Assembly: GCA_902555435.1 (NCBI GenBank)
Contig: CACDRL010000001.1
Coordinates: 3,758-67,757, forward strand
DNA: 64,000 nt
DNA from: an uncultured Pelagibacteraceae bacterium
GTDB taxonomy: Bacteria; Pseudomonadota; Alphaproteobacteria; Pelagibacterales; Pelagibacteraceae
Reading direction: 5' to 3'
Each line of letters starts with the position of its first letter. The first letter of the stretch is position 1. Below, piece after piece: positions 1-17,373 of the stretch. The translations under genes and the position numbers were made by a program. The notes beneath the pieces are model-generated. The model had not been told where the DNA came from and searched no databases. It saw only the letters and a program-made list of their open reading frames with translations.

Positions 1-273
1 AGTGTAAGCTTCTTGGTTTGGTAACCAAATATCAGGGTGAACATCAATCTCACCTTTTCCTCTGTCAATTGCAGCATAAATTGCAGTATTGTTTCCAGGA
101 ACTAGTTCTGCTTCACCACCCATTTTGTCTATAACTACTGCAGCAAGTAAATTTGCAATTGCAGTTGCACCTGTCCAACCTGGATCTCCAATTTTAACTT
201 TTTCTGCGTTTGCAGAGAAAATTGATAAAATAGAAATTAATCCAGCTACAAGTGTAGTTTTGATTATTTTCAT
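1..273 (-). CDS. Glycine betaine/proline-type ABC transporter substrate-binding protein (ProX/OpuAC family), 5' part only, runs off the left edge
   Basis: Not in the ORF track. Manual translation from ATG at 273 (GGAG SD upstream): MKIIKTTLVAGLISILSIFSANAEKVKIGDPGWTGATAIANLLAAVVIDKMGGEAELVPG...GEIDVHPDIWLPN, a signal peptide plus OpuAC-like N-terminus. Confidence 0.8.
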   Translation of the reverse strand, partial: MKIIKTTLVAGLISILSIFSANAEKVKIGDPGWTGATAIANLLAAVVIDKMGGEAELVPGNNTAIYAAIDRGKGEIDVHPDIWLPNQEAYT

Positions 274-351
274 TTACTCTCCTTATTATTTAAAAATAAA
301 GTCTAACGCGAATTGAGATAATGAGTCAAAGAAAATCAGATACTAAAATGA

Positions 352-1125
352 TTAAATATTTTTAATAAATTCTATAATATTTTTTGATACTTCACGTGGT
401 GCCTCAATAAGAAATGAATGCTTATATTTGGGTAAAATAACTAATTTTGAATTTTTTATCTCTTTTGCCATTTTTTTATTATGTTCAGGGCTACAACCGC
501 CATCATTTTCTCCTGTCATTAACAAACATGGTGTAGTTAATTTTTTTAGCCATGAAATCATTTCCGTATTTGCATAAATTTTAAAAACGTTAAGAAAAAC
601 CTCTGGGTCTGTATCAATAACTTGTTTTAATCTGTTATTTACTAAATCAGGATTTGTTTTTATAAAGTCATCAGTAAACCATCTAGAAGTAAGATTTTGA
701 AGTGTATGTTCAATTCCAGTGCTTTCCATCTCATTAATTATTTTTAACACCTTATTTTTATCTTCTTGAGATCGACCAGCAACTGTAGAAAGTAAACCAA
801 CTGATAATACTCTATTAGGAAAATTTATTGCATAAGCAGGTGCTATCATGCCCCCTAATGAGTGACCCATAAAATGAGCTTTTTCGATATTTGTTTTTTC
901 TCTTATTTTTTCTAGGTCTAAAACTAAATCCTCTAAAGTAAAATTTTTATTTGTAACAGGCGAATTCCCATGACCTCTTAGGTCATATGTAACAACTGTA
1001 AAATATTTTGATAGTTCGGATATCATGAAACGCCAAGCATTCTTGGCCGCTCCTATTCCATGAGTTAAAAATAAAGCAGGTCCTGATCCTTGGACAGAAA
1101 AATCACAATCAATTGCATTAGACAT
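352..1125 (-). CDS. Alpha/beta hydrolase (PcaD/TgnD-like)
   Basis: HGIG oxyanion motif, GHSLGG nucleophile elbow, TGEND acid, C-terminal His; 257 aa. Confidence 0.85.
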   Translation of the reverse strand: MSNAIDCDFSVQGSGPALFLTHGIGAAKNAWRFMISELSKYFTVVTYDLRGHGNSPVTNKNFTLEDLVLDLEKIREKTNIEKAHFMGHSLGGMIAPAYAINFPNRVLSVGLLSTVAGRSQEDKNKVLKIINEMESTGIEHTLQNLTSRWFTDDFIKTNPDLVNNRLKQVIDTDPEVFLNVFKIYANTEMISWLKKLTTPCLLMTGENDGGCSPEHNKKMAKEIKNSKLVILPKYKHSFLIEAPREVSKNIIEFIKNI

Positions 1126-1131
1126 TTGATA

Positions 1132-2166
1132 TTAAGCAACTTGATATTTTAAATTTTTAAAATATGGGATTATCTCTTCACTTATTTTATGCATTGACTC
1201 TATAATTTCATTTTGTTCCTGACCAAAACTTGAACTAATTATAAATTCATCTACTCCAGACTCTGCATAAATACTCAACTTATCAATTAATTCATTTATA
1301 GTGCATATAAGTAAATTTTCTTTCATTTCTTCAAAACTTTGTTTTCTAGGTAATGGCACAATATTTCCACTTTTAACTTTACCAGGGCCAGTAAACATAT
1401 TATCAAATCTTTTATAATATTCGTAAGCAAGTCTATTTTTTTTTTCTACATCATCCTGATCTTTTGCAACAAACATCATTCTTTGCATCGAAAGTTTTAA
1501 TAATTTCCCTTTTTCACCTAATTCTTCACATCCTTCTTTAAAAGCATTAACTCTCTCCATTAAAAGTTCTTTAGTGCCTGATAGAACAGTGGACTGCACA
1601 TGAAAACCTCTTGATGCTGCATTTTTTATGCTTTTAGGATCCATTGCAGCTATCATTATAGGGACAGGTTGAGTAATAGGTCTTGGCATAATTGTTAATG
1701 CATCAAAATTATAATATTTACCTTTATAAGAAACTTCTTCCTCAGCTAACAACTTTTGAAGCACTTCCAATGATTCAATAAATTTTTCTTTTGATTTTTC
1801 TATAGGTGTGCCTAATCTTTCCATTTCCCATGGGAAAGCACCTCTAGCTACTCCTAAGATTAGTCTTCCATCTGTCAAGATGTCGGCTGTTGAAACTTCT
1901 CCAGCATATGTTCTCATATCATGCAAAGGTAAAACTGCTACGCTTGTTGATACTGAAATATTTTTTGTTAAAGCAGCAATTTTGACAGCCATCTGCAATG
2001 GTGATGGCATCATAAGTAAATTTATTAAATGATGTTCGGGGATAGAAACAGTTTTATAACCAAGTTTTTCAGCTAATATTGATTGCTCAATCATATTTTG
2101 AAAATGTATTTTTGATCCAATATTTGGATCTGGCATATAACTTGTTAAGAAATGATTAAAATCCAT
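1132..2166 (-). CDS. LLM-class (luciferase-like) flavin-dependent monooxygenase
   Basis: PEHH motif, DILTDGRLILGVARG signature; 344 aa. Confidence 0.9.
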   Translation of the reverse strand: MDFNHFLTSYMPDPNIGSKIHFQNMIEQSILAEKLGYKTVSIPEHHLINLLMMPSPLQMAVKIAALTKNISVSTSVAVLPLHDMRTYAGEVSTADILTDGRLILGVARGAFPWEMERLGTPIEKSKEKFIESLEVLQKLLAEEEVSYKGKYYNFDALTIMPRPITQPVPIMIAAMDPKSIKNAASRGFHVQSTVLSGTKELLMERVNAFKEGCEELGEKGKLLKLSMQRMMFVAKDQDDVEKKNRLAYEYYKRFDNMFTGPGKVKSGNIVPLPRKQSFEEMKENLLICTINELIDKLSIYAESGVDEFIISSSFGQEQNEIIESMHKISEEIIPYFKNLKYQVA

Positions 2167-2249
2167 TTTAAAATTATATACTTATAAATAATTAATCCAA
2201 ATAATATTTATTTCGATATTTAAAAACTACAAAAATTTATTAATTTCAA

Positions 2250-2660
2250 TTATTTTGGATTCGCTGTGAGTGTCTTTATCTCTAATATGTTTTCATTTGG
2301 ATCTTTTACAAAAAATGTTTCTTGCTCGTATTTTGTACCTTTAAATCTCAAATAAGGTTCGTCATAATATTTTGTACCACTATCTTTTAATCTTTGTTTA
2401 AGAGCATCAAAATCTTTTCTAGATAGATGTACGCCAAAATGTGGGACAGATACATTGCCCATGTCAACGTCATGTCTTTCGTTATCGAGTTTATGATCAC
2501 TTTTATGAAGAGTTAATTCATTTCCCCAAAAATCAACATCAGCCCATTCCTGTGCTGAGTTATCTAACCTGCATCCTAAGGTCTCACTATAAAACTTCTT
2601 GGCTATCTCTAAATCTCCACAAGGTATAGCTAAATGAAAACAATTTGTATTCTTATACAT
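2250..2660 (-). CDS. VOC/glyoxalase family protein
   Basis: [33 protein letters not shown] metal-binding pattern. Confidence 0.85.
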
Positions 2661-2742
2661 TTCAACCCTCTTTAAATTGCGTATTTTATTACTATATAAG
2701 GCATGTAATTTTTTTTATCAACCGCAACAAATTAAAAGAAAT

Positions 2743-3327
2743 ATGAGTGATTTTTTACAATCAATAATTGATAGAGACCCTGCTGCTAAATCAAAACTAA
2801 GTCTAATTTTAACTTATCCAGGTGTTAAAGCGGTATTCCTTCACAGAATAGCTAATTTTTTTAGTACAGCTAAATTTTATTTGATTGCAAGAATCATTTC
2901 ACAATTCTCAAGATTCTTAACAGGAATAGAAATTCATCCAAATGCAAAAATTGGAAAAAATTTATTTATTGATCACGGTATGGGAGTAGTAATTGGAGAA
3001 ACATCTGAAATTGGTGATAACGTAACTATTTATCATATGGTTACATTGGGTGGAATTGCTCCAAGTATAAATTCAAATGACCAGCGTAATATGAAAAGAC
3101 ATCCGACTATAAAAGAAGATGTGGTTATCGGATCTGGAGCGCAAGTTTTAGGGCCTGTTACTGTAGGTAGAGGCGCAAGAATTGGTGCAAATGCAGTTAT
3201 AACAAAAGATGTTCCTGAAAATTCTGTTATGGTTGGAATTCCAGCAAGAAGTGTTGGCATTGCTGATAGTGAATTTAAACCTTACGGAATAACACCTGAT
3301 AGTGATAAAAAACTAGATGATGAATAA
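2743..3327 (+). CDS. cysE: Serine O-acetyltransferase
   Basis: [34 protein letters not shown] hexapeptide region; start moved from 2677 to ATG 2743 where family similarity begins. Confidence 0.93.
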
Positions 3328-4321
3328 TACTCAAAACGACTTTATTTCAGGAATAGGAAATACTCCACTAATTAAATTAAGAGCTGCCTCTGAAATTACA
3401 GGATGTAATATTTATGGAAAAGCAGAATTTTTAAATCCTGGTGGATCAGTTAAGGATAGAGCTGCTCTTGCATTAATTAAAGATGCACAAGACAAAAAAC
3501 TAATTACTAAAGGTGGAACAGTTGTTGAAGGTACTGCTGGCAATACTGGAATTGGTTTAGGTCTATTGGGGAATTCTTTGGGTTATAAAACAATTATTGT
3601 AATGAATGACAATCAAACTCAGGAGAAAAAAGATTTACTTAGAAATCTTGGAGCTGAACTAAGACTAGTTCCACCTAAGCCTTATAAAGATGACAACAAT
3701 TTTGTTAAAGTTGCCGCAAGACTGGCGGATGAGTTAAGACCAACAAATAATAACGGTGTAATTTGGGCTAACCAGTTTGATAATACAGCAAATGCTAAAG
3801 GTCATTATGAAGGGACAGGACAAGAAATTTGGGAACAAACTGAAGGTAAAATAGATGGTTTTGTCTGCTCTTCTGGAACTGGAGGAACTATTTCTGGTGT
3901 AAGTAATGCTCTTAAAGAAAAGAACAAAGATATAAAAATTTATTTATCAGATCCAAAAGGATCAGCTCTCTATAACTATATCAAGAATGGTGAACTTAAG
4001 TCAGAAGGTGGTTCAATTACTGAAGGAATTGGATCAAGTAGAGTAACAGCTAACTTTGGTGAAGCTAAAATTGATGATGCCTACTCTATTGATGATCATG
4101 AAGCTCTACCTATTCTTTATGATCTTATTCAAAATGAAGGATTAAGTTTAGGAACTAGTTGTGGAATAAATATTGCAGGAGCTATTAGAATGGGAAAAGA
4201 ATTAGGACCTGGAAAAACCATCGTGACCATTCTTTGTGACAGAAGTGATAAATACGCAACTAAAATGTTCAATAAAAAATTCTTAGAGGAAAAAGGTTTA
4301 CCAATTCCTAAATGGTTTTAG
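3317..4321 (+). CDS. cysK: Cysteine synthase (PLP-dependent O-acetylserine sulfhydrylase)
   Basis: [21 protein letters not shown]-lysine motif, [13 protein letters not shown]; overlaps the end of cysE. Confidence 0.93.
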
Positions 4322-4734
4322 ATATAAATCTTGTCTGCTAATCCGTAACAAAGGATTGCACTTAACAAAGTTAAAATACCTGGCGCAATAATTCCTTCAT
4401 TAGATGTTTGTGGAGTATGACCTAACTTATTTATTTTAATTGTATAAATCCCCACACAAAAAGCTGAAAGATTTTGTAAAAATACTAAATTAAAAAATGC
4501 CCATGTTCCTTGAAGCCCATCAGGTCTAATAAAGCCAACCCATATTGCCATTACAACAGCACCTATAAATAAAGAACCAAAAAATCTTGTCATTCCTGCA
4601 CCAGTGTCATCGATACCAAATTTATCTAAAAATTTCTTCGTAGCGAAAACTGTCTGATATGCGTAAACAGCAAAAATCACAAAATGTACTAAAAATACAA
4701 TTAAATAAAAAATTCCATTAAATTTTTCAATCAT
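4318..4734 (-). CDS. Hypothetical membrane protein (about 4 TM)
   Basis: 138 aa with several hydrophobic segments; convergent overlap with cysK stop. Confidence 0.7.
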   Translation of the reverse strand: MIEKFNGIFYLIVFLVHFVIFAVYAYQTVFATKKFLDKFGIDDTGAGMTRFFGSLFIGAVVMAIWVGFIRPDGLQGTWAFFNLVFLQNLSAFCVGIYTIKINKLGHTPQTSNEGIIAPGILTLLSAILCYGLADKIYI

Positions 4735-4913
4735 TGTTAAACGTTATCAAAAATTAAAATTAAATAAAACAATTAATTCAACGAGTTTTACAGTCTAAAA
4801 CTGCATATCTGTCGCGCGATATAAACACAAGAGACTCCGCAATAAAAATGTAACATTCTTCACTTATAGTTCAATTATTCGGAAAGGAATATTAACAAAA
4901 AAAGGAGAAAAAA

Positions 4914-5195
4914 ATGAAAGATATATTGGTAGTAGGAAAACTAAAAGAAGGAGCCTTTGAAAAATTTATGGGCTTTATGCAATCAGATGAAGGTATGGCT
5001 GAAAGAAAAAAAGTAGCAGATGTTACTAAAACAATAGCCAGTGTCTCACCTGATAAATCAACAGTAATGTTTAAAATTGTAGTTCATGACATGGCAGCAC
5101 TTCATTCATTTATGGATGGATCAAATCCAGTTTCAAAACCTGTATTTGATGAAGTTATGGATGGTTATGAAATATACGAATTAGCTAAAGTTTAA
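4914..5195 (+). CDS. Small hypothetical protein (possible dimeric alpha/beta barrel)
   Basis: 93 aa, strong AAGGAG SD; fold is a guess from residue pattern. Confidence 0.7.
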   Translation: MKDILVVGKLKEGAFEKFMGFMQSDEGMAERKKVADVTKTIASVSPDKSTVMFKIVVHDMAALHSFMDGSNPVSKPVFDEVMDGYEIYELAKV

Positions 5196-5267
5196 AAAGA
5201 ACAGAGACTCCACATGTTGGATTTTCTCTGCTAGACTTTGTAATTAAATTATAATTAACGAGGAGGA

Positions 5268-5621
5268 ATGATGGCTGGGATAGAAGTAAAAAGTTTTGAT
5301 AAAGCAGATGAAGTGAATGATAATTTTAATAATGCAAAAATTGAAGCAGTCAAAGTCGGAAACCAAAGATTGATGAAGCTTACTTTGCAACCTGGTTGGC
5401 AATGGTCGAAAGATATAAAACCAACGGTTGGTGGTGATAGCTGTCAAGCAACACATCTAGGTATTATAATTTCTGGAGCTGTTTGTGCAAAACATAATGA
5501 CGGAACTGAACTAACTTATAAAGCTGGAGATGCATATTCAATCCAACCTGGACATGATGGATGGGTTGTAGGAGATAAGCCAGCAGTAGTATATGAATTT
5601 CATGGAATGTGGGGAGAATAA
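5268..5621 (+). CDS. Cupin domain protein
   Basis: CQATHLG and PGHDGWVVG cupin motifs; GAGGAGG SD. Confidence 0.85.
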   Translation: MMAGIEVKSFDKADEVNDNFNNAKIEAVKVGNQRLMKLTLQPGWQWSKDIKPTVGGDSCQATHLGIIISGAVCAKHNDGTELTYKAGDAYSIQPGHDGWVVGDKPAVVYEFHGMWGE

Positions 5622-5944
5622 TGTCTAAATTTTATGTAATTGGAAAGGCAAGTCCTGAGTTATTAAAAAAAATGCATGCTGACCCTACCGCAGATAGAGG
5701 TGCAGTAATGAAATCGATGTGTGATAGCTTAGGAGTAAAAGCTATAAGTTACGAATGGTTAAGAGGGCGTTTTGATGTTCTTTTCTGTGTTGAAGGAGAT
5801 TATGAAAGTGTTCTTGCTATGAAAGTAACTGTTCTAAATAGTGGAATGATGTCGGACCTGATGGTTCATGAAGTATTTGATTACAACAGTGCTTTTAAAA
5901 AAGCAGCTGATGTGTCAAAAAGTTATAAAAAACCAGGTGAATAA
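5621..5944 (+). CDS. GYD domain-like protein
   Basis: GRFD corresponds to the G.YD motif; start moved to ATG 5621 (TAATG coupling with cupin, GGGGAG SD). Confidence 0.7.
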   Translation: MSKFYVIGKASPELLKKMHADPTADRGAVMKSMCDSLGVKAISYEWLRGRFDVLFCVEGDYESVLAMKVTVLNSGMMSDLMVHEVFDYNSAFKKAADVSKSYKKPGE

Positions 5945-5959
5945 ATAGAAAGGAACAAT

Positions 5960-6280
5960 ATGTCTATATTAGAAAAATATAGTGCTGCAATAAAAAATAA
6001 AGATGAAGCAGTGATGAATGATCTTTTGCATGATGATTTTAAATTCACAATGCATAAGTCAGGGAATGTTTTGGGTAAAGGTGATGTTATCAAATGGGCA
6101 ATGAGCGGCGACATTAATCAAGATAAAGTAAGAGTTGTTTATGAAAATGACGAAGTTGGTGTTCATCATTCATTTGTTACTTTTGATGATGGAAATGTAG
6201 AGGCGGTAATGGCAGTTTATAAATATGACAACGGAAAAATTGTTAGTTTAGAAACTGGTGCTACACCAATGCCAAAATAA
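5960..6280 (+). CDS. NTF2/SnoaL-like protein
   Basis: LLHDDF.F, YENDEVGV.H, terminal KIVSLETG pattern; AAGGA SD. Confidence 0.75.
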   Translation: MSILEKYSAAIKNKDEAVMNDLLHDDFKFTMHKSGNVLGKGDVIKWAMSGDINQDKVRVVYENDEVGVHHSFVTFDDGNVEAVMAVYKYDNGKIVSLETGATPMPK

Positions 6281-6871
6281 GTGAGTGAAATTGATTTTTA
6301 TTTTTCGATAGGAAGCACATATACCTATCTATCCGTAACTAGAATACTTGATGTTGAAAAACAACATCAAGTAAAATTCAACTGGAAACCTTTTTCAGTA
6401 AGAGCAATCATGAAAGAGATGAACAATATTCCTTTTCCAAAGGATAAAATGAATAAAGTCAATTACATGTGGAGAGATATTGAAAGAAGAGCTGAGGGTT
6501 ACGGTTTTTTTGCCAAAACACCAGTACCCTATCCATTATCAGAATTTGATTTAGCAAATCAAATTGCAATTCTTGGATTTAAAGAAGGCTGGGGAGAAAA
6601 ATTTGTAATGTTGACTTATAAAAAATGGTTCCAGGAGGGTAAAGAGCCTGCAATTGATCCTAGCATTTCTGAAGTTTGTACTGAATTAAATTTAAATAAA
6701 GATGACATAATATCTAAAGCAAAGTCAGAAATTATAGAGGCACAATATAATGAAAACACAAATTCAGCTCGTGAAAATAAAATTTTTGGCAGTCCATCTT
6801 TTATAGTGAAAAATGAAGTCTTCTGGGGAGATGATCGAATGGAAGATGCCATTAAATGGTCTCTTAAATAA
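6281..6871 (+). CDS. DsbA-family 2-hydroxychromene-2-carboxylate isomerase / GST-kappa-like protein
   Basis: IDFYFSIGSTYTY, YMWRDIERRA, IFGSPSF...FWGDDR; GTG start directly after previous stop. Confidence 0.88.
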   Translation: MSEIDFYFSIGSTYTYLSVTRILDVEKQHQVKFNWKPFSVRAIMKEMNNIPFPKDKMNKVNYMWRDIERRAEGYGFFAKTPVPYPLSEFDLANQIAILGFKEGWGEKFVMLTYKKWFQEGKEPAIDPSISEVCTELNLNKDDIISKAKSEIIEAQYNENTNSARENKIFGSPSFIVKNEVFWGDDRMEDAIKWSLK

Positions 6872-6909
6872 TTATATATATTCTAATTAAATTCATTTAA
6901 AGTCACTGT

Positions 6910-7242
6910 ATGAGTCTTGCTAGTTCATATCTTTTTTTAGCTGTTGCAGTATTTTTAGGGGTTACTTCAAACAGTTTTGCAAAAAGTGCTGAAGGATTTA
7001 CACTTCTTGTTCCAAGTATAATTACAGCAATTACAATTGTTTTGTGCATGTATGCACTTTCATTAGTGATGAAAAATATTCCAATGGGTATCACTTATGC
7101 TTCATTCGCAGGATTAACAATTATTGCAACAGTTATAGTTGGTATAATTAAATATAACCAAGTTCCCAATCTTTATTCTATGATTGGATTAGCATTTATA
7201 ATTATTGGAGTTTTAATGGTTAATTTGTTAGGTAATAAATAA
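6910..7242 (+). CDS. SMR/DMT-family small multidrug transporter paralog 1
   Basis: 110 aa, 4 TM, EGFT loop, PMGITYA..AG, IG...II.GV; Gly at the usual Glu14 position. Confidence 0.85.
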   Translation: MSLASSYLFLAVAVFLGVTSNSFAKSAEGFTLLVPSIITAITIVLCMYALSLVMKNIPMGITYASFAGLTIIATVIVGIIKYNQVPNLYSMIGLAFIIIGVLMVNLLGNK

Positions 7243-7243
7243 T

Positions 7244-7579
7244 ATGAAGCCTTTGTTAGGATACTTATTTTTAGCTAACGGTATAATTTTTGGTATCGCA
7301 TCAAATAGTTTTGCTAAAATTTCTGAGGGATTCACAAAATTAACTCCTTCTGTTTTATGTATTTTATTTATGTGTATTACAATGTTTTCAATTGCAAAAG
7401 CTATGTCTGCACTTCCAGTTGGGTTTGCCTACTCAACTTATAGCGGTTTGACAGTAACAGGTGTTGTTCTTTTTGCTGTTTTAAAATTTAATCAAGTGCC
7501 TAATATTTATGGAACTATAGGAATTATTTTAATTATTATTGGTGTAGTAATGGTTAATTATCTTGGACGACTAAACTGA
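7244..7579 (+). CDS. SMR/DMT-family small multidrug transporter paralog 2
   Basis: 111 aa, 4 TM, SEGFTK, LPVGFAYS.YSG; Gly at the usual Glu14 position. Confidence 0.85.
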   Translation: MKPLLGYLFLANGIIFGIASNSFAKISEGFTKLTPSVLCILFMCITMFSIAKAMSALPVGFAYSTYSGLTVTGVVLFAVLKFNQVPNIYGTIGIILIIIGVVMVNYLGRLN

Positions 7580-7929
7580 TACTTTTTTAATATCTCAGGA
7601 AGCTGATGGCTTCCGTCTTCATTTAATGGCAAGTCATATTCATTCACAACGGTGGTAGTATCTAAAGATGAATACAAATGGGGATACATATCTCCATTAG
7701 ATGCCTGCTCCCATAATAAATGTTCAAGTTTAAAAGCATTTACTCTCAATAAAACTAGGTTTTCTTTTTTTGGATAATATTTTTTTAATGTTTCCTCAAC
7801 CTGATCCTCCTCTGAAAAATGAATATATCCATCTTTAAGATCTTTTTCAGATCCACCATAAGTCCCAGATTGTTTGGCTTTTTGCCATTCTTCTTTATCT
7901 ATTACTTTGAAAATAAATTCTAAATTCAT
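7558..7929 (-). CDS. DUF952 domain protein
   Basis: DLKDGYIHFS, YPHLY motifs. Confidence 0.85.
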   Translation of the reverse strand: MNLEFIFKVIDKEEWQKAKQSGTYGGSEKDLKDGYIHFSEEDQVEETLKKYYPKKENLVLLRVNAFKLEHLLWEQASNGDMYPHLYSSLDTTTVVNEYDLPLNEDGSHQLPEILKKYQFSRPR

Positions 7930-7930
7930 T

Positions 7931-8494
7931 TTACCAAGAAGAGTTTGGTCCTTTTAAAAATTCTAGTTCTTCTTCGGTAGATTCTCTTCCTAAAATTTCG
8001 TTTCTATGTGGATATCTGTGAAATTGTCTAATTGCTTTTGTATGATCTTGCCAAAATTTTTTTATTTCGTTGTAACCATCGTGCTCTCTTAAATATTTAT
8101 TTAATAAATAATATGCCATCTCATGATCGCTTATTTCTTCACTGTGAATTAAAGGTAACAACATAAAAAATCTTTGATTTACATTCATAGCTTCTAAATA
8201 ACCTGAATAAACTGCATCATTTACAATCAATCTGGTTTTTTGATCTTGTGCGAACGCCTTTTTGTCATTTCTAAACATATTTCGTGAAAACTGATCAAAC
8301 AAAATAACTAGTGCTAAACAACTCATAGGATTATCTTGCCAATCATCATATTCATTTTGACAAGCAAGTTCATAATCTTTCAAAAAATTATTTTTAATTT
8401 TTTTATCAAAATTTTCATCTTTTTTAAAACGCATTTCAGAAGGAGTTTCTTTAAACCAGAAATCTAAAATTGTTTGCGCTCTTTCTGGTATCAT
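7931..8494 (-). CDS. DUF924 family protein
   Basis: ILDFWF, LFDQFSRNMFR, F.RYPHRNEILGREST.EE. Confidence 0.9.
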   Translation of the reverse strand: MIPERAQTILDFWFKETPSEMRFKKDENFDKKIKNNFLKDYELACQNEYDDWQDNPMSCLALVILFDQFSRNMFRNDKKAFAQDQKTRLIVNDAVYSGYLEAMNVNQRFFMLLPLIHSEEISDHEMAYYLLNKYLREHDGYNEIKKFWQDHTKAIRQFHRYPHRNEILGRESTEEELEFLKGPNSSW

Positions 8495-9297
8495 TCAGCT
8501 AAAGGCTTTAATAGTTTTAATATTTGTTTATGATTTGTTTTATTATTTGAGACAATAATATTTCCTCCTACCACAGGATTTTTATTTCCCCATGTAGTTA
8601 CTATAGCACCACTTGCTCTCACTATTGGCATAATCGGATGGATATCCCAAATTTTGTTTGCACATTGCGCAACCATTTCAAGTCTACCTTCAGCTAGTTG
8701 ACAATATGTTAAAGCATCAAAACATGGAAATTGCATTCGTTTTATAAATTTTTGAATTTTAGATTGTTGTTTTAGAGTTAATTGATTGTGAAATGCTGCA
8801 GCTAATTTTGCATTAGCAAAATTTAATTTAGAATTAACCTTTAGTTTTCTTTTTTTATTATTTTCAAAAACGTATGCAGTATTTTTATTTACATTTAAAT
8901 AATATTTTTTCATTTTAGGAAAATTTGCTAATCCTAAAATTGGTTCCCCATCATAATTTAATGAAATCAAATTACTCCAACTAGGATTGCCTACAACATA
9001 TGATCTGGTTCCATCAATTGGGTCGATTACCCATGAAAACTCACTTTTAGTAAGTTTATGACCATACTCCTCACCAATGATCTGGTGGTTTGGAAATTTT
9101 TTTGAAATTTTAGACCTTATAAATTTTTCAAATGCTTTATCAGATGTAGTTACTGGATCATATCCTTTACCTTTCATCTTGTTGGTTATCTTGAATGGTT
9201 TATCTAATTTGGCGTAGTAAAATTTTGTTAAATCTTTAGCAAGTTGATTTAAAAAGCTTGCATATATTGGATATTTTTTTGAATCAAATTTTTTCAC
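8491..9297 (-). CDS. hisN: Inositol monophosphatase family protein, probably histidinol-phosphatase
   Basis: DPVT..D, IIGEE, WVIDPIDGT, WDI; alphaproteobacterial HisN type. Confidence 0.7.
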   Translation of the reverse strand: MKKFDSKKYPIYASFLNQLAKDLTKFYYAKLDKPFKITNKMKGKGYDPVTTSDKAFEKFIRSKISKKFPNHQIIGEEYGHKLTKSEFSWVIDPIDGTRSYVVGNPSWSNLISLNYDGEPILGLANFPKMKKYYLNVNKNTAYVFENNKKRKLKVNSKLNFANAKLAAAFHNQLTLKQQSKIQKFIKRMQFPCFDALTYCQLAEGRLEMVAQCANKIWDIHPIMPIVRASGAIVTTWGNKNPVVGGNIIVSNNKTNHKQILKLLKPLAE

Positions 9298-9364
9298 ATT
9301 GAACTCTTACTATTTAATTTATGTTGATTAAAGTTAAATTTTAAATAATCCTTACCTTTGTATT

Positions 9365-10468
9365 ATGAAAATTGAGCTAATTGAAAATAAAGTTTATTTT
9401 AATAATGGATCTGAAAAAAAAGAAATTCACCCATTCTGGTTACGTGAAAGGGCAAATGGTGAAGAATATTTAGATAAAGGAACTCAGCAAAGACTTTTTG
9501 ATCCTACTTTTCTGAGTAATAATATTTCAATAAATAGAGCCAATATTAATGAAAAATATTTAGAAGTTAATTTTAATGATGGTGTTAATTCAAAATTAGA
9601 AATAGATAAAATTGCTTCTGAGTTTTTTAAAGAAGACACTGTAATTAGATCTATAGAAAAGACTAAATGGGACTCCACTCTAAAAAATATTAAAAATTTC
9701 GAATACCAAGAAAATTTTTATGAGAGTAGAGAAATGCATGATTTGCTTGTTTCTTTCTATAAATTTGGATTTGTAGTAGTAAAAAATATTCCAACATCAA
9801 AAAATTACATCGTGGAATTTGCAAATTCTATAGGAAGTGTTCGAAGAACAAATTTTGGTGAATATTTTGATGTAAAATCTAAACCTGATCCTAACGATCT
9901 AGCTTATACATCCTTAGCTCTTGCGCCTCATACTGATAATCCCTATAGAAATCCTGTTCCTTGTATTCAGCTTTTACATTGTATTGAGAGTAAAGTTTCA
10001 GGAGGATTATCAACATTAGTAGATGGTTATACAGTTACTGAAGATTTAAAAAATGAATATCCAGAATTTTACAAAATATTAACAGAGGTAAAAGTAAGAT
10101 TTAGATTTATTGATAAAGAAGTTATTTTAGAAACAATTTCTCCTTTAGTTGAATTAAATGATGATAAAAGTTTTAAACAGGTAAGATTTAGTCCTAGATT
10201 AGACTATGTTCCTATTTTAGAAAAAGAAAAATTAGATCTTTACTATAGTGCGAGAAAAAAAATATCTGAAATGTATAATTCAGATAAATATAGAATTGAA
10301 TTTAAACTCGAGCCAAAAGACTTAATGATGATGGATAATCATAGATTACTTCATGGACGAACAGTCTATGATGCAAATGAAGGAGAAAGATTTTTACAAG
10401 GTTGTTATATCGACTACGATAGTACTGAAGGAAAATTGAGACACTTAAAAAGAAAGTTTAATCTATAG
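9365..10468 (+). CDS. Fe(II)/2-oxoglutarate dioxygenase, gamma-butyrobetaine hydroxylase-like (TauD family)
   Basis: N-terminal FWLR domain, HTDNPYR (HxD) and DNHRLLHGR motifs, RFLQGCY. Confidence 0.88.
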   Translation: MKIELIENKVYFNNGSEKKEIHPFWLRERANGEEYLDKGTQQRLFDPTFLSNNISINRANINEKYLEVNFNDGVNSKLEIDKIASEFFKEDTVIRSIEKTKWDSTLKNIKNFEYQENFYESREMHDLLVSFYKFGFVVVKNIPTSKNYIVEFANSIGSVRRTNFGEYFDVKSKPDPNDLAYTSLALAPHTDNPYRNPVPCIQLLHCIESKVSGGLSTLVDGYTVTEDLKNEYPEFYKILTEVKVRFRFIDKEVILETISPLVELNDDKSFKQVRFSPRLDYVPILEKEKLDLYYSARKKISEMYNSDKYRIEFKLEPKDLMMMDNHRLLHGRTVYDANEGERFLQGCYIDYDSTEGKLRHLKRKFNL

Positions 10469-11045
10469 AAATATTTTCTATTTGAGCTTCTGCATCTCTG
10501 ATTGATTTTTCATAATCTAAGGCCATTTGATCAGCACTAATTACTTCAATTTTTTCTATTCCAAAAAAGTTTAAAATAAATTTTAACCAAGGCGTTAAAA
10601 AATCCTCAGAGCTATTTAGTTTAGTTCCACCTGAAGTAATGACTAGATATGCTTTTTTGTTTTTTAATAACCCTTCTCTTCTACCATTAGGTTTAAATTT
10701 AAAAGTTTCCCCTATTCTAGCAGCTAAATCTGACCAAGCTTTAAGTGTTGCTGGGGGACCATAATTATAAATTGGGGCTGAAATAATAATAATGTCACTT
10801 TCTTTTAATTCTTTTACAAACTTGTCAGAAAGTTCAAACATTTTTTTATGTTCTTCTGTTTGATCTTTTTCATCAATATTCATTCCAGACTCTGTTAAGC
10901 CACTTACAAAAAGCATCTCATCATCTAAATCTCTATAAATTACCTCATCTCCTGGTTTTTTGATTTTTTCTAAAAGTTTTTTTGCTAAAGCTCTAGAAGT
11001 AGAGCCTTTCTTTCTAGCGCTGGAGTCTATTTGATAAATTTTCAT
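10458..11045 (-). CDS. azoR: FMN-dependent NADH-azoreductase/quinone reductase
   Basis: IDSSAR..GS.SR, PIYNY..PA.LKAW.D, TSGG. Confidence 0.85.
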   Translation of the reverse strand: MKIYQIDSSARKKGSTSRALAKKLLEKIKKPGDEVIYRDLDDEMLFVSGLTESGMNIDEKDQTEEHKKMFELSDKFVKELKESDIIIISAPIYNYGPPATLKAWSDLAARIGETFKFKPNGRREGLLKNKKAYLVITSGGTKLNSSEDFLTPWLKFILNFFGIEKIEVISADQMALDYEKSIRDAEAQIENISID

Positions 11046-11053
11046 TCAATAAA

Positions 11054-11761
11054 CTAACCAAAATTTTGCATAAAAGGAAAGATCTTAATTATGTAAAATC
11101 CAATTACTTGTAATTGATTAGTTAAAATCAAAGTTCCGGTTATGAGTAGAGTTATACCGCCAATTTTTGAAATTAAATTAATATTCTTTTTAAAATTTTT
11201 AGAAAATAATAAAAATCTTTGAATTAAGTATCCAGATAAGACAAAAGGAATAGCAAGACCTAATGAATAAGAAATTAACAAGATTACAGCTCTTGATAAA
11301 GTTTCTTCAATTGATGCTAAAGCTAAAATTGAACCCAAAATTGGTCCAATGCATGGTGTCCAGCCAAAACCAAAAGCAACACCAATTACATATGGAAATA
11401 GAATATTTCTTGATTCTTTTGCATCAAATCTTTTTTCAAAATTTAAATATGGAATATTGATTATTCCAATTAATTGAAGAGAAAAAATTATGATAACTAT
11501 TCCAGCTAAAATTCTTAACACTTCCGAATTTTGTAATAGTGCCTGTCCTAAAAATGATGCTGATGCACCTAAAATAACAAAAACAGTCGAGAAGCCTAAA
11601 CAAAATAAAATTAATGGAAAAATATTTATTTTTCTTTGATTTAAAATTTCTTGTAATGATTGACCGGAAATATAAGAAATATATCCAGGTATCAAAGGTA
11701 GAACACATGGAGACAAGAAACTTATAAGTCCTGCTCCAAAAGCAATTAAGTATTCAAACAT
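11054..11761 (-). CDS. ccdA: Cytochrome c biogenesis protein CcdA (DsbD TM domain)
   Basis: SFLSPCVLPLIP and FGWTPCIGPILG cysteine motifs. Confidence 0.93.
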   Translation of the reverse strand: MFEYLIAFGAGLISFLSPCVLPLIPGYISYISGQSLQEILNQRKINIFPLILFCLGFSTVFVILGASASFLGQALLQNSEVLRILAGIVIIIFSLQLIGIINIPYLNFEKRFDAKESRNILFPYVIGVAFGFGWTPCIGPILGSILALASIEETLSRAVILLISYSLGLAIPFVLSGYLIQRFLLFSKNFKKNINLISKIGGITLLITGTLILTNQLQVIGFYIIKIFPFMQNFG

Positions 11762-14452
11762 TTATCCAGTATTTTTCATTGCTGCAGAGATACCTGCAAT
11801 CGATGTCATTAAAGCATCTTCAAGAAATTTTTTATCTAAATTTTTATATTTTTTATTTGTTAATTTATTCATGACATTTGCCTGTAGTATATTTAACATC
11901 TCTGTATAATTGTTTCTTATAAATAACGCTTTTCTAAATTCTTTTCTCTCTTTTACCACTTCCTTAGGAGTAATTTTATTATGCAATTTGACCAGTGCAT
12001 CAAATTGAAATCTTAATTTTTTACCAATTCTCTTTAATGAGGCATCAGCTAAATTATTTTCATAAATAACTGATATTTCTGGATCCACCTTAGAAATTAC
12101 CATATCCAAAATATCCATGGTTGATACAAAGTATGGCCAATTTCTTTCCATATCTGTCATTGTTCTTCTAAACTTTTTAATAGAACCATATCTAAGCGCT
12201 TCAGTTGTGCCTAGCCAAGCAGGTAACATTAGTCTAATTTGCGTCCAAGCAAATACCCAAGGAATAGCTCTTAAGCTCTGAATATTGTCGACATTCTTTC
12301 TTTTGGTTGGTCTTGATCCAATAGCAAGCTTTCCAAGTGATTTATGTGGAGTAACCGTTTTGAAGTAACGAATAAAATCCTGACTTTGATTTAGATATTT
12401 TCTGTATGAAGATGTAGAAATTTCTGACATTTTTTGAATTAATTCACGCCAATTAGTTTTTGATCTTGGTGGAGGATTTAAAGAAGCATCCATTACTGAA
12501 CCGATATAGCTACAGAGGTTATATTCAGCTAAAGGTTTGTAACCGTACTTTTGTTGAATTACTTCACCTTGATCAGTAATTCTAATTTTTCCATTAACTG
12601 TACCTGAAGGTTGTGATTTTAAAGTAGCCTGAATTGGACCACCTCCTCTTCCTGGAGATCCGCCTCTACCGTGGAAGAAAACAAGATCTATCTTATATTT
12701 TTTTGCTAAATTTCTAAGCTCCTCTTGAAGTTTGTATTGATGCCAACTTGCAGATAATTTTCCAGCATCTTTACTCGAGTCCGAGTACCCAATCATCACT
12801 TCCTGTTTTGACTTAATCATTTTTCTGTACCATGGAAGTTTGAATAAATTTGTCATGACGCTGTTAGCATTTTTTAGATCATCCAAAGTTTCAAAAAGTG
12901 GCACAACTCTTAATAAATTTTTGGTTTTTGCCTGCATTTGTAAAAAATAAACTGATAAGATATCTGATGCTGTTGAAGTCATTGATATTACATATGCACC
13001 TAGGCATTCAATTGGTGTTTTTGCAATCTGTTTGAAAGTATTCCAAACTTCTTTATTTTCTTTATCTTTTAATTTTATTTTATCTACAAAAGATTTTTTT
13101 TCTTTTATAGATTTATTTAATAATTTTATTTTTTTTTCTTCAGTTAAAGAAGAATATTTTATATTTTTTTTCTTTTTAAAAATTTCGTTTAAAAGTTTTT
13201 CATGTCTATCTGCCTCTTGTCTTATATCTAATCTTGCTAAATTAATTCCAAAACACCTCACTCTTCTCATTAAATCTAATAAGTCTGCGTTTGCAATATG
13301 CTCTCCTCTATTTGCTTTTAATGAGTTTCTTACTTCTCTTAATGGAAGAGTTATTTCGTTTTTATTTTGAATTAATTTTTTTTCATCTAAAGGTACATTT
13401 TTATTTAAATGATTTTCGATTAATTGATGGGTTAGTCTTACCTTGTCTCTAATTGGTCTCAAATAAACTCTATAAGGTTCATAACTGTTTCCTGTTGCTC
13501 TTTTAATTTTTGTTGAGCATTCTTCCATTGATAAATCTTGTATCAATTTAGTAAGTTCTTTCTCATATAATTTTGCAGCTTGCCATCTAGAAAATAAAAT
13601 TACTTTCTTGGTTACTTCTGCAGTTACATTTGGATTTCCATCTCTGTCTCCGCCCATCCATGAACCAAATTGAATAGGATTAAAATCACGAGGCAAATCT
13701 TTCTTTAAATTTTTTCTAAAAATGTCGTTAAGTCTTTTGTAAACTTTAGGAATGGTATCCCACAAACTATCTTCTATTACGGCTAATCCCCATCTTGCTT
13801 CGTCTAATGGAGAAGGCTTTGTTCTTTTAAGTTCATCTGTTTTCCATATTATTGCAATTTCTGAGTATAGTTTTCTATCTAATTCGATGATTTTTGAGGG
13901 GTATTTTTTATAGAGATGTCTATGCTCCATAATTTCAGTTAAATTTGCATATTTTTGAATTAAGGTTCTTCTTTTAACTTCTGTTGGATGCGCAGTAAGA
14001 ACTATTCCAATATCTAGTTTTGTTGCTAAATTATAAATTTTATTATTTGTAATATTTTTATTTTTAAAAAGTCCCTCAATAATATCCTCAATAAATAAGT
14101 TTTGATTTTTGCTTTTAAAGTATGGATTTTCATATTCATTTAATTTTCTAGAAGCATCCAATGACTCAGCTAAATTCATTAAATTAAGGATGTGTGAAAA
14201 AGCCCTTGTGATTTTAAAAGTTTTTTCTGGTGAAAGTTTTTTTACTTCCTTTGATATTTTTGAGAAAACTTTACTTTTATTTTTGTCTGATAAAGTGCTT
14301 TTTGATAATAATCTAAATCTTTCAACAATTTGAAAAAAAACTGAACCTTCTTGATCTTTAATTACTTTTCCTAGGAATGTCCCTAATAATCTAATATCTT
14401 CTCTTAAGAGCTTTGTAGGTATTCGCTCATAGTAAAGATCTCTTTTCTTCAT
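11762..14452 (-). CDS. ppc: Phosphoenolpyruvate carboxylase
   Basis: LTAHPTE, GGDRDGNP, MIGYSDS.KDAG, FHGRGG, SLRAIPWVFAWTQ, terminal MKNTG. Confidence 0.97.
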   Translation of the reverse strand: MKKRDLYYERIPTKLLREDIRLLGTFLGKVIKDQEGSVFFQIVERFRLLSKSTLSDKNKSKVFSKISKEVKKLSPEKTFKITRAFSHILNLMNLAESLDASRKLNEYENPYFKSKNQNLFIEDIIEGLFKNKNITNNKIYNLATKLDIGIVLTAHPTEVKRRTLIQKYANLTEIMEHRHLYKKYPSKIIELDRKLYSEIAIIWKTDELKRTKPSPLDEARWGLAVIEDSLWDTIPKVYKRLNDIFRKNLKKDLPRDFNPIQFGSWMGGDRDGNPNVTAEVTKKVILFSRWQAAKLYEKELTKLIQDLSMEECSTKIKRATGNSYEPYRVYLRPIRDKVRLTHQLIENHLNKNVPLDEKKLIQNKNEITLPLREVRNSLKANRGEHIANADLLDLMRRVRCFGINLARLDIRQEADRHEKLLNEIFKKKKNIKYSSLTEEKKIKLLNKSIKEKKSFVDKIKLKDKENKEVWNTFKQIAKTPIECLGAYVISMTSTASDILSVYFLQMQAKTKNLLRVVPLFETLDDLKNANSVMTNLFKLPWYRKMIKSKQEVMIGYSDSSKDAGKLSASWHQYKLQEELRNLAKKYKIDLVFFHGRGGSPGRGGGPIQATLKSQPSGTVNGKIRITDQGEVIQQKYGYKPLAEYNLCSYIGSVMDASLNPPPRSKTNWRELIQKMSEISTSSYRKYLNQSQDFIRYFKTVTPHKSLGKLAIGSRPTKRKNVDNIQSLRAIPWVFAWTQIRLMLPAWLGTTEALRYGSIKKFRRTMTDMERNWPYFVSTMDILDMVISKVDPEISVIYENNLADASLKRIGKKLRFQFDALVKLHNKITPKEVVKERKEFRKALFIRNNYTEMLNILQANVMNKLTNKKYKNLDKKFLEDALMTSIAGISAAMKNTG

Positions 14453-16503: not shown

Positions 16504-16509
16504 AAAAAA

Positions 16510-17352: not shown

Positions 17353-17373
17353 AATTGTCCTTTTGTTATTAAA

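What the first reader, a model, noticed from the sequence alone, without database searches (positions are those of the whole stretch)
6910..7579. Paired SMR transporters that both lack the essential Glu14
Seen: TM1 reads AVAVFLGVTSNSFAK and ANGIIFGIASNSFAK where EmrE has AILAEVIGTTLMK, so Gly replaces the membrane Glu in both copies, and they share a novel SNSFAK motif. The EmrE Trp63 position (AYAIWSG) is Phe/Tyr (TYASFAG, AYSTYSG). Established: Glu14 is required for proton/cation exchange in EmrE and Gdx. Inference: an SMR subfamily that cannot be a classical H+ antiporter, possibly a facilitator or channel for neutral or anionic solutes, working as a heterodimer.
Basis: partly seen in the sequence, partly recalled or inferred. 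Interest (0 to 1): 0.68.

Follow-up and report, generated by a model that had tools for sequence, protein, structure and literature searches.

The report
Glutamate-less SMR transporter pair in SAR11
Two adjacent small membrane-transporter genes of the ocean bacterium Pelagibacter (SAR11) belong to a large, conserved and apparently undescribed branch of the SMR family that has swapped the proton- and cargo-binding glutamate for glycine. It must therefore work differently from every characterised drug or guanidinium exporter of that family.

Summary
Genes A (6910-7242) and B (7244-7579) are clear SMR proteins (Pfam PF00893; gapless alignment to EmrE; model TM-score 0.83). Both carry Gly at EmrE Glu14, Asn at Thr18 and Phe/Tyr at Trp63.

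This is a clade, not decay:
- In 460 full-length relatives, Gly17 always goes with Asn/Ser21 and Phe/Tyr66, and Glu always with Thr/Ser and Trp.
- With the trait columns removed, the Gly sequences still form one clade (95/96). Their sister is a Glu-bearing SAR11 group.
- dN/dS is 0.07 for A and 0.12 for B.
- No acidic residue is conserved anywhere in the proteins.

The clade was found in 111 of 116 sampled Pelagibacter genomes and in no alphaproteobacterial family outside Pelagibacteraceae among 400 sampled. A divergent branch lies on metagenome contigs, one carrying a giant-virus capsid gene.

The heterodimer idea is only partly supported. Pairs always combine an A type with a B or C type, but each type also occurs alone in near-complete genomes, and both subunits have near-zero Lys/Arg bias. 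Homodimers must therefore work.

It is not ArnE/F, Gdx or MdtIJ. The most likely function is an uncoupled facilitator of an uncharged or zwitterionic solute; the substrate is unknown. This scan reached the same reading earlier on other SAR11 DNA (e1-3123157).

The parts
6910..7242 (+). Gene A: 110-aa A-type Glu-less SMR protomer (Gly17, Asn21, Tyr63, Phe66, G68-L-T70)
   Evidence: ORF. PF00893 at 60 bits. Gapless alignment to EmrE, E=8e-11. AF2 model with pLDDT 92.9 and four helices at 3-26, 33-53, 59-82 and 88-107. Best fold matches are EmrE and Gdx-Clo, TM up to 0.83. dN/dS 0.066.
7244..7579 (+). Gene B: 111-aa B-type Glu-less SMR protomer (Gly17, Asn21, Tyr63, Tyr66, G68-L-T70). Its start codon lies one base after the stop of A.
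   Evidence: ORF. PF00893 at 57.7 bits. Gapless alignment to EmrE, E=9e-14. dN/dS 0.124.
6958..6960 (+). Codon GGG = Gly17 of A, at the position of EmrE Glu14
   Evidence: Sequence and alignment. Gly in all 146 A-type sequences.
6970..6972 (+). Codon AAC = Asn21 of A (EmrE Thr18), one helical turn above Gly17
   Evidence: Asn in 146 of 146 A-type, 129 of 130 B-type and 124 of 124 C-type sequences.
7105..7107 (+). Codon TTC = Phe66 of A (EmrE Trp63)
7292..7294 (+). Codon GGT = Gly17 of B, at the position of EmrE Glu14
7304..7306 (+). Codon AAT = Asn21 of B (EmrE Thr18)
7439..7441 (+). Codon TAT = Tyr66 of B (EmrE Trp63)
7598..7614 (+). Terminator-like hairpin 19 nt after the stop of B. It is the probable end of the + strand transcription unit and lies inside the convergent DUF952 gene.
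   Evidence: Consensus scan only; 4 such sites were found against 0.7 expected.

Best explanation
A and B are functional four-helix SMR protomers of a Glu-less clade. The clade arose once, from EmrE/Qac-like exporters, in the SAR11 lineage. Like EmrE they most likely insert in both orientations and form antiparallel dimers: AA, BB and probably AB.

The central chamber of EmrE is lined by two Glu14 carboxylates, Thr18 and Trp63. Here it is relined by Gly17 (no side chain, so a larger cavity), the Asn21 amide one turn above, Ser20/Ser22, the retained Tyr63 'switch' and Phe/Tyr66. No ionisable residue is conserved in the membrane. The dimer therefore cannot bind and release protons or neutralise a cation, which is how Qac, Gdx and MdtIJ work.

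The most likely mechanism is uncoupled alternating access (facilitated diffusion) of a small uncharged or zwitterionic polar solute.

Shown: family, fold, residue replacements, one origin, purifying selection, distribution, occurrence as singletons, and absence of a compensating acid. Inferred: dual topology, dimer composition, uniport, and the class of substrate. The substrate itself is unknown.
For: Family and fold.

Residue pattern and covariation in 460 sequences: Gly17 with Asn/Ser21 and Phe/Tyr66; Glu17 with Thr/Ser21 and Trp66.

No conserved acid: E28 is the only acidic residue in A and B, and is Asn in 63% of C types.

One clade, with the five trait columns left out: UFBoot 95 / SH-aLRT 96. 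A Glu-bearing Pelagibacteraceae group is sister at 99/97 (quick tree).

Purifying selection: dN/dS 0.066 for A and 0.124 for B.

Near-universal in the genus: 111 of 116 genomes.

Singletons in near-complete genomes: A only in G146 and G094; B only in G008, G032, G058 and G087; C as the sole PF00893 gene in G040, G004 and G022.

Lys/Arg bias between -1.2 and -0.3, against +/-4 for fixed-topology heterodimers (PMC9574504).

The central glutamates carry both protons and cationic substrate in Gdx, Qac and polyamine SMRs (PMC9574504).

No riboswitch lies upstream.
Against: Gene neighbourhoods differ between lineages and name no substrate: mtnP-mtnA; a HAAT-type ABC operon; ispA-dxs; ugpB; and a variable mini-gene array. 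The second Gly of the TM3 GXG hinge is replaced by Thr, which could mean altered or reduced conformational exchange. The same pattern of changes (uncharged centre, Trp lost, GXG lost, Tyr kept) is seen in the lipid-flipping ArnE/F proteins, so a lipid-linked substrate is not excluded. Deep branches of the tree are unresolved.
Confidence: 0.5

Rival explanations
1. Lipid or polyprenyl-phosphate-sugar flippase, a convergent analogue of ArnE/ArnF. The uncharged, Asn-lined chamber would hold a head group while the tail stays in the bilayer through the TM2 portal.
For: Lipid SMRs are the only known subtype with an uncharged residue (often Asn) at the central position, and they keep the Tyr switch (PMC9574504). 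In my alignment ArnE/F also lack Trp63 and the GXG motif. G000 has an ArnT-like PMT_2 gene next to a GT2 gene but no GtrA-type flippase. In two genomes the A-type gene follows ispA-dxs.
Against: ArnE/ArnF models score 15 bits against cut-offs of 92 and 99. The clade is nested among EmrE-like sequences, far from ArnE/F. There is no co-occurrence with the PMT_2 gene: genera g12 and g14 have PMT_2 in 5 of 5 genomes but the Gly SMR in 1 of 5 and 0 of 5, and the four genomes of the second family f209 that have the Gly SMR include two (G550, G551) listed without PMT_2, in genera scoring 0/5, 0/6 and 0/2 for PMT_2. No glycosyltransferase is adjacent at any locus examined.
Confidence: 0.15
2. Obligate A:B heterodimer of the classical paired-SMR kind (EbrAB, YkkCD, MdtIJ), with each subunit fixed in the opposite orientation and inactive alone.
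For: The genes are one base apart. In 75 of the 80 closest Pelagibacter loci A is followed by B. All 13 pairs classified combine an A type with a B or C type, never two of one lineage. Tyr48/Phe66 in A against Phe48/Tyr66 in B and C looks like a complementary swap.
Against: A alone, B alone and C alone each occur in 99%-complete or single-contig genomes. Lys/Arg bias is near zero for both, not +/-4. In 47 of the 80 loci the two genes are separated by a DUF2798 gene.
Confidence: 0.08
3. Anion or ion channel or leak pathway. Loss of the two carboxylates turns the chamber into a conduit for a small anion or ion rather than a carrier.
For: The negative charge is removed. Polar Ser, Asn and Tyr line the chamber.
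Against: No conserved positive residue lies inside the membrane; Lys25 is the interfacial Lys22 common to all SMRs. The alternating-access elements (Tyr switch, Gly68, TM4 G93/G100) are kept. No channel is known in this fold.
Confidence: 0.07
4. Partner subunit that pairs with a Glu-bearing SMR of the same cell to give an asymmetric single-glutamate antiporter. In MdtIJ only one glutamate is essential.
For: G000 also encodes a canonical Glu14/Trp63 SMR at G000:C3:84645-84920. Single-Glu heterodimers of EmrE are structurally viable (PDB 8uoz).
Against: Three genomes of a sister genus (95-98% complete) have the C type as their only PF00893 gene. The canonical gene is unlinked. A and B are paired with each other, not with it.
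Confidence: 0.05
5. Decaying or function-less paralogues, like Bacillus YvaD, which lost E14 under weak selection.
For: YvaD is a precedent for an SMR that lost E14 (PMC2716321).
Against: dN/dS is 0.07-0.12. Gly17, Asn21 and Tyr63 are invariant across hundreds of sequences. The genes are retained in 111 of 116 genomes of about 1.3 Mb. The model has pLDDT 92.9.
Confidence: 0.02

Closest known systems
EmrE / Qac subtype of the SMR family (PF00893; PDB 3b5d, 7mgx, 8uoz, 8uwu)
   Same: Length and four-helix fold (TM-score 0.83). Gapless alignment at 32-33% identity. Retained features: Tyr60 switch, Lys22, Pro32, Pro55-x-Gly57, Gly65, Gln81, TM4 Gly90/Gly97, and weak Lys/Arg bias. Best-scoring NCBIfam models are Qac types. 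The clade sits among EmrE-like sequences in the tree.
   Different: Glu14 to Gly, Thr18 to Asn, Trp63 to Phe/Tyr, Gly67 to Thr, Pro86 to Tyr, Tyr40 to Ile/Met. Scores are 47-80 bits against curated cut-offs of 160-226. Without the glutamates, proton-coupled export of cations cannot work the same way.
ArnE/ArnF (PmrL/PmrM) lipid-flipping SMRs
   Same: The only characterised SMR subtype with an uncharged central position. They keep the Tyr switch and lack Trp63 and GXG. Their transport is proposed to be uncoupled (PMC9574504).
   Different: Unrelated within the family (15 bits; separate long branches in the tree). There is no arn-type operon and no co-occurrence with the ArnT-like gene of SAR11.
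Paired SMRs (MdtIJ, EbrAB, YkkCD; YvaE/YvaD)
   Same: Two adjacent SMR genes. YvaD also lacks E14.
   Different: Known pairs have opposite Lys/Arg bias and at least one essential Glu. Here both subunits lack Glu, both have near-zero bias, both are under strong purifying selection, and each occurs alone in some genomes.
Glu-bearing SAR11 SMR group (sister clade, e.g. L058:8059-8400, L024, L028, L031)
   Same: 45-50% identity to A. Shares the loop-3 motif K-Y-N-Q-x-P-N and Ile at EmrE Tyr40. Found in the same family of bacteria.
   Different: Keeps Glu14, Thr18, Trp63 and the full GXG motif.

Membership tests
SMR family (Pfam PF00893) | Profile match above the curated threshold | tested here: met
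   60.0 and 57.7 bits against 23.7
SMR family (Pfam PF00893) | About 110 residues, four transmembrane helices, EmrE/Gdx fold | tested here: met
   AF2 model of A: pLDDT 92.9, helices 3-26, 33-53, 59-82, 88-107. Foldseek: EmrE TM 0.83, Gdx-Clo TM 0.77. B was not modelled.
SMR family (Pfam PF00893) | Membrane-embedded central glutamate in TM1 (EmrE E14) | tested here: not met
   Gly17 in both proteins and in all 407 clade members. No other conserved acidic residue.
SMR family (Pfam PF00893) | Tyrosine switch (EmrE Y60) | tested here: met
   Tyr63 is invariant
SMR family (Pfam PF00893) | Binding-site tryptophan (EmrE W63) | tested here: not met
   Phe66 in A, Tyr66 in B; never Trp in the clade
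SMR family (Pfam PF00893) | TM3 GXG fulcrum (EmrE G65-x-G67) | tested here: not met
   G68-L-T70: the first Gly is kept; the second is Thr, Cys, Val or Ala throughout the clade
SMR family (Pfam PF00893) | TM4 Gly-x6-Gly dimerisation motif (EmrE G90, G97) | tested here: met
   G93 and G100 are invariant
SMR family (Pfam PF00893) | Antiparallel dimer from dual-topology or oppositely oriented protomers | tested here: inconclusive
   Lys/Arg bias between -1.2 and -0.3 fits dual topology. Topology and oligomer state cannot be measured with these tools.
Qac / EmrE subtype | Curated NCBIfam Qac/EmrE models above cut-off | tested here: not met
   Best score is 80.1 bits against a cut-off of 160 (QacCGHJ); EmrE scores 47.6/55.6 against 226
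Qac / EmrE subtype | Proton-coupled export of quaternary or aromatic cations | not testable with these tools
   Needs transport assays. The residues that do it (E14, W63, Y40) are absent.
Gdx (SugE) subtype | Gdx model above cut-off; guanidine riboswitch context | tested here: not met
   SugE model 53.1/45.4 bits against 126. No Rfam match in 1-20000 apart from a chance miRNA hit.
Polyamine subtype (MdtIJ) | MdtI/MdtJ models above cut-off; paired genes with opposite charge bias | tested here: not met
   MdtI 53.5/45.2 bits against 103; MdtJ 18.9/21.5 against 122; bias near 0
Lipid subtype (ArnE/ArnF) | ArnE/ArnF models above cut-off; location in an arn-type lipid A modification operon | tested here: not met
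   15.4 and 15.8 bits against 92 and 99. Neighbours are a DsbA-like gene and DUF952. No co-occurrence with the PMT_2 gene.
Lipid subtype (ArnE/ArnF) | Uncharged residue at the central position with the Tyr switch retained | tested here: met
   Gly17 plus Asn21 and Tyr63. This is a resemblance in mechanism only, not in descent.

The most novel reading that the evidence does not exclude
This is a fifth functional SMR subtype: a dual-topology carrier not coupled to protons, for an uncharged or zwitterionic metabolite. It arose once in SAR11 by relining the chamber of a Qac-type exporter (E14G, T18N, W63Y/F, G67T), became nearly universal in the most abundant marine bacteria, and was also acquired by marine giant viruses.
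Probability: 0.4. Interest if true: 0.75.

Novelty: new variant of a known kind. Interest (0 to 1): 0.66.

Why it matters
The SMR family is the textbook minimal transporter, and its whole mechanism is built on the paired central glutamates. A large clade under purifying selection keeps the fold, the Tyr switch and the dimer motif but has no ionisable residue. It is therefore a natural test of what the SMR scaffold can do without proton coupling.

It would add a functional subtype to the four recognised ones (Gdx, Qac, polyamine, lipid). The genes sit in nearly every sampled genome of genus Pelagibacter, where a 1.3-Mb genome spends two or three genes on SMRs. The substrate is therefore probably a metabolite of ecological weight in the surface ocean. 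The presence of a related branch on a giant-virus contig points to gene exchange between SAR11 and viruses of marine protists.

Tried and rejected
1. Compensating acidic residue: rejected. The only Asp/Glu is E28 (= EmrE E25, loop 1), and it is variable.
2. Membership of ArnE/F, Gdx, MdtIJ or curated Qac families: rejected by scores and by the tree.
3. Riboswitch or other RNA upstream: none found.
4. Substrate from gene neighbourhood: 40 Pelagibacteraceae loci and 2 from a second family were compared, and the contexts differ by lineage with no common theme.
5. Phylogenetic profile against the ArnT-like PMT_2 gene: no co-occurrence.
6. Profile against the betaine-binding OpuAC domain: no useful correlation. 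One genus lacks both, but two groups have OpuAC without the Gly SMR.
7. Viral collection scans with a virus-like member and with protein A found nothing. The alignment of virus-like members was too diverse to scan with.
8. The record behind L060 is not held, so its viral nature could not be checked further. Its large ORFs have no Pfam hits.
10. Literature: full-text searches for Glu-less SMRs, SAR11 plus SMR/EmrE, giant virus plus SMR, and DUF2798 found no description of this clade. Only YvaD and ArnE/F are recorded as lacking E14.
11. Dimer modelling was not possible, because the structure tool takes single chains only.

Full report
**What is there**

Two ORFs lie one base apart on the + strand: A (6910-7242, 110 aa) and B (7244-7579, 111 aa).
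- Both match Pfam PF00893 (SMR) at 60.0 and 57.7 bits, against a cut-off of 23.7.
- Both align to E. coli EmrE over 103 residues without a gap, at E = 8e-11 and 9e-14. A residue number here equals the EmrE number plus 3.
- An AlphaFold2 model of A, built from 40 relatives, has mean pLDDT 92.9 and four helices (3-26, 33-53, 59-82, 88-107).
- The only significant PDB fold matches of that model are EmrE (TM 0.83) and Gdx-Clo (TM 0.77-0.81).

| EmrE residue | In A | In B |
|---|---|---|
| Glu14 | Gly17 | Gly17 |
| Thr18 | Asn21 | Asn21 |
| Tyr60 | Tyr63 (kept) | Tyr63 (kept) |
| Trp63 | Phe66 | Tyr66 |

Each protein has a single acidic residue, Glu28. It corresponds to EmrE Glu25 in loop 1, not to a membrane position.

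The window belongs to a 1.29-Mb, 94%-complete Pelagibacter (SAR11) genome. That genome also has a third, unlinked SMR gene with the canonical Glu14 and Trp63.

**A clade, not an accident**

A search of 1.8 billion representative proteins, two word-index searches and genome-derived copies gave 460 full-length relatives. They split cleanly:
- Position 17 is Gly in 407 and Glu in 51.
- Every Gly sequence has Asn (or Ser) at 21 and Phe or Tyr at 66.
- Every Glu sequence has Thr or Ser at 21 and Trp at 66.

Column by column, the changes that separate the Gly group from all Glu-bearing SMRs are these:
- E14 to G.
- W63 to F or Y.
- G67 to T, C, V or A. This is the second glycine of the TM3 'GXG fulcrum'.
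- In practice also T18 to N and P86 to Y.

Position 28 is E, D, N or Q, and is Asn in 63% of one subtype. No acidic residue is therefore conserved anywhere in the clade.

**Phylogeny**

I built an IQ-TREE tree of 90 sequences with these five trait columns removed.
- The Gly sequences form one clade (ultrafast bootstrap 95, SH-aLRT 96).
- Their sister (99/97) is a Glu-, Thr- and Trp-bearing group that is itself found in Pelagibacteraceae genomes.
- E. coli EmrE, Gdx, MdtI/J and ArnE/F lie outside this grouping.
- Deeper branches are unresolved.

A quicker first tree agreed. The best-scoring curated models are Qac types, but far below their cut-offs: 80 bits against 160.

The clade has three subclades:
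- an A lineage (Phe66), supported at 100/99;
- a B+C lineage (Tyr66), at 95/96, in which B arises from within C;
- a divergent D lineage, at 97/98.

**The genes are in use**

Pairwise dN/dS among orthologues is 0.066 for A and 0.124 for B.

| Sample | Result |
|---|---|
| Genus of the window | Gly-type gene in 111 of 116 genomes, usually two |
| Sister genus g5 | 9 of 10 genomes |
| Genus g12 | 1 of 5 |
| Genus g14 | 0 of 5 |
| Second family of the order (f209) | 4 of 60 |
| 400 evenly sampled Alphaproteobacteria | About 150 bits only in Pelagibacteraceae; the best 28 hits elsewhere (92 bits or less) all carry Glu and Trp |
| One genome per prokaryote species | At least 587 loci; the best 80 are all Pelagibacter or Pelagibacteraceae |

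**Heterodimer or not**

Evidence that A and B go together:
- In 75 of the 80 closest loci A is followed by B. In 28 they are directly adjacent, as here. In 47 a 75-aa DUF2798 membrane-protein gene lies between them.
- All pairs I classified combine an A type with a B or C type.
- A has Tyr48 and Phe66 where B and C have Phe48 and Tyr66.

Evidence that neither needs the other:
- Each type also occurs alone in near-complete genomes: A only in G146 and G094, and B only in G008, G032, G058 and G087.
- In three 95-98% complete genomes of a sister genus, the C type is the only PF00893 gene of any kind.
- Lys/Arg bias across the membrane is between -1.2 and -0.3 for all types. The SMR review reports about +4 and -4 for fixed-topology heterodimer subunits (PMC9574504).

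Homodimers must therefore be functional. An obligate heterodimer, or a Glu-less subunit that depends on a Glu-bearing partner, cannot be the general rule. An AB heterodimer in this genome remains plausible.

**How it most likely works**

In Gdx, Qac and polyamine SMRs the two central glutamates bind the cation and carry the protons (PMC9574504). This clade has none, and no substitute.

It does keep several elements of the carrier:
- the Tyr switch;
- Gly68;
- the TM4 Gly-x6-Gly dimer motif;
- Lys25, Pro35, Pro58-x-Gly60 and Gln84.

The scaffold and the dimer interface look intact, but one hinge glycine is gone.

By homology, the chamber is lined by Gly17, Asn21, Ser20/22, Tyr63 and Phe/Tyr66. 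It is larger, polar and uncharged. Asn21 sits one turn above Gly17, so its amide can occupy roughly the space the Glu side chain left.

My best reading, at about 0.5, is an uncoupled facilitator for a small uncharged or zwitterionic solute. That it is not a proton/cation antiporter I hold at about 0.85.

**Rivals**

The lipid-flippase idea deserves attention. ArnE/F show the same pattern: an uncharged centre, Trp and GXG lost, Tyr kept. This genome also has an ArnT-like PMT_2 gene next to a GT2 gene but no GtrA.

Against it:
- ArnE/F models score only 15 bits.
- No glycosyltransferase is adjacent at any locus examined.
- PMT_2 is present in two genera that largely lack the Gly SMR.
- The four genomes of the second family that have the Gly SMR include two (G550, G551) listed without PMT_2, and their genera score 0/5, 0/6 and 0/2 for it.

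Decay like that of Bacillus YvaD (PMC2716321) is contradicted by the selection data.

**Substrate**

I could not name one. Contexts differ by lineage:
- translational coupling to mtnP-mtnA;
- insertion between the two permease genes of a HAAT-type ABC importer, whose best but sub-threshold matches are UrtB/UrtC;
- after ispA-dxs;
- before ugpB;
- after Fe-S assembly genes;
- here, after a variable run of mini-genes and a DsbA-like gene.

A profile against the betaine-binding OpuAC domain gave nothing useful. No riboswitch is present.

**Giant-virus branch**

The D lineage is rare and comes from metagenome contigs. On L064 the gene lies 1.2 kb from a Nucleocytoviricota major capsid protein gene (Capsid_NCLDV 199 bits, Capsid_N 171 bits) and an ATG8 homologue.

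A 66-kb contig (L060) carries a related gene among a cathepsin, a RING-finger protein and a 2814-aa ORF. One member has a poly-Gln N-terminus.

These sequences keep Gly17 and Tyr63/Tyr66.

**Novelty**

Full-text searches found no description of this clade. The review recognises four subtypes, with only the lipid type lacking the glutamate.

This scan noted the same thing before on other SAR11 DNA. One follow-up (e1-3123157) reached the same conclusion, and my results agree with it.
- the singleton and charge-bias evidence;
- the Glu-bearing sister group;
- the full set of diagnostic substitutions;
- the selection figures;
- the DUF2798 arrangement;
- the PMT_2 test;
- the giant-virus branch.

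I rate it a new variant of a known kind.

Noticed in passing
L064:1590-1943 (SMR) and L064:3166-4617 (capsid); also L060:8001-8342: A divergent Glu-less SMR (D type; Gly17, Tyr63, Tyr66) lies 1.2 kb from a giant-virus (NCLDV) major capsid protein gene and an ATG8 homologue on a 6.7-kb metagenome contig. A related copy sits on a 66-kb contig with a cathepsin, a RING finger and a 2814-aa ORF.
   Followed up: partly
L096-L175 at about 3330-3600; e.g. L048:7818-8045: In 47 of the 80 closest Pelagibacter loci a 75-aa two-helix DUF2798 gene lies on the same strand between A and B. The window and its whole genome lack DUF2798.
   Followed up: partly
G000:C3:84645-84920 (L001:1492-1824): A third SMR gene of the genome has canonical Glu14 and Trp63. 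Its start overlaps the end of an AMP-dependent synthetase-like gene.
   Followed up: partly
L051:7955-8293 and L033:7938-8276: In two Pelagibacteraceae genomes an A-type Glu-less SMR gene is embedded, with a 4-base overlap, between the two permease genes of a HAAT-family ABC importer. Their best (sub-threshold) matches are the urea permeases UrtB and UrtC.
   Followed up: partly
L023:7913-10193, L025, L027: In two other genera the A-type gene is translationally coupled (4-base overlaps) to mtnP (MTA phosphorylase) and mtnA (methylthioribose-1-phosphate isomerase).
   Followed up: no
L179:3023-7820 (G000:C3): There is an operon of an ArnT-like PMT_2 glycosyltransferase, a GT2 glycosyltransferase, DUF1800 and DUF1501. 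The genome has no GtrA-type flippase. PMT_2 is nearly universal in Pelagibacteraceae (133 of 140 genomes).
   Followed up: partly
window 7558-7579: The 3' end of gene B overlaps the 3' end of the convergent DUF952 gene (7558-7929, minus strand) by 22 bases. A terminator-like hairpin (7598-7614) lies inside that gene.
   Followed up: no
genus g14 of the order search (e.g. G014, G027, G036, G045): One Pelagibacteraceae genus lacks both the Glu-less SMR and any OpuAC (betaine-binding) domain, and has only a Gdx-like 107-aa SMR. It may be a low-salinity lineage; this was not checked.
   Followed up: no
window 9365-10468: A TauD-family dioxygenase (gamma-butyrobetaine-hydroxylase-like) lies 1.8 kb downstream on the + strand. 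A paper on Arctic SAR11 (PMC12421898) lists an SMR gene in an island with two such dioxygenases and carnitine genes. Whether that SMR is of the Glu-less type was not checked.
   Followed up: no
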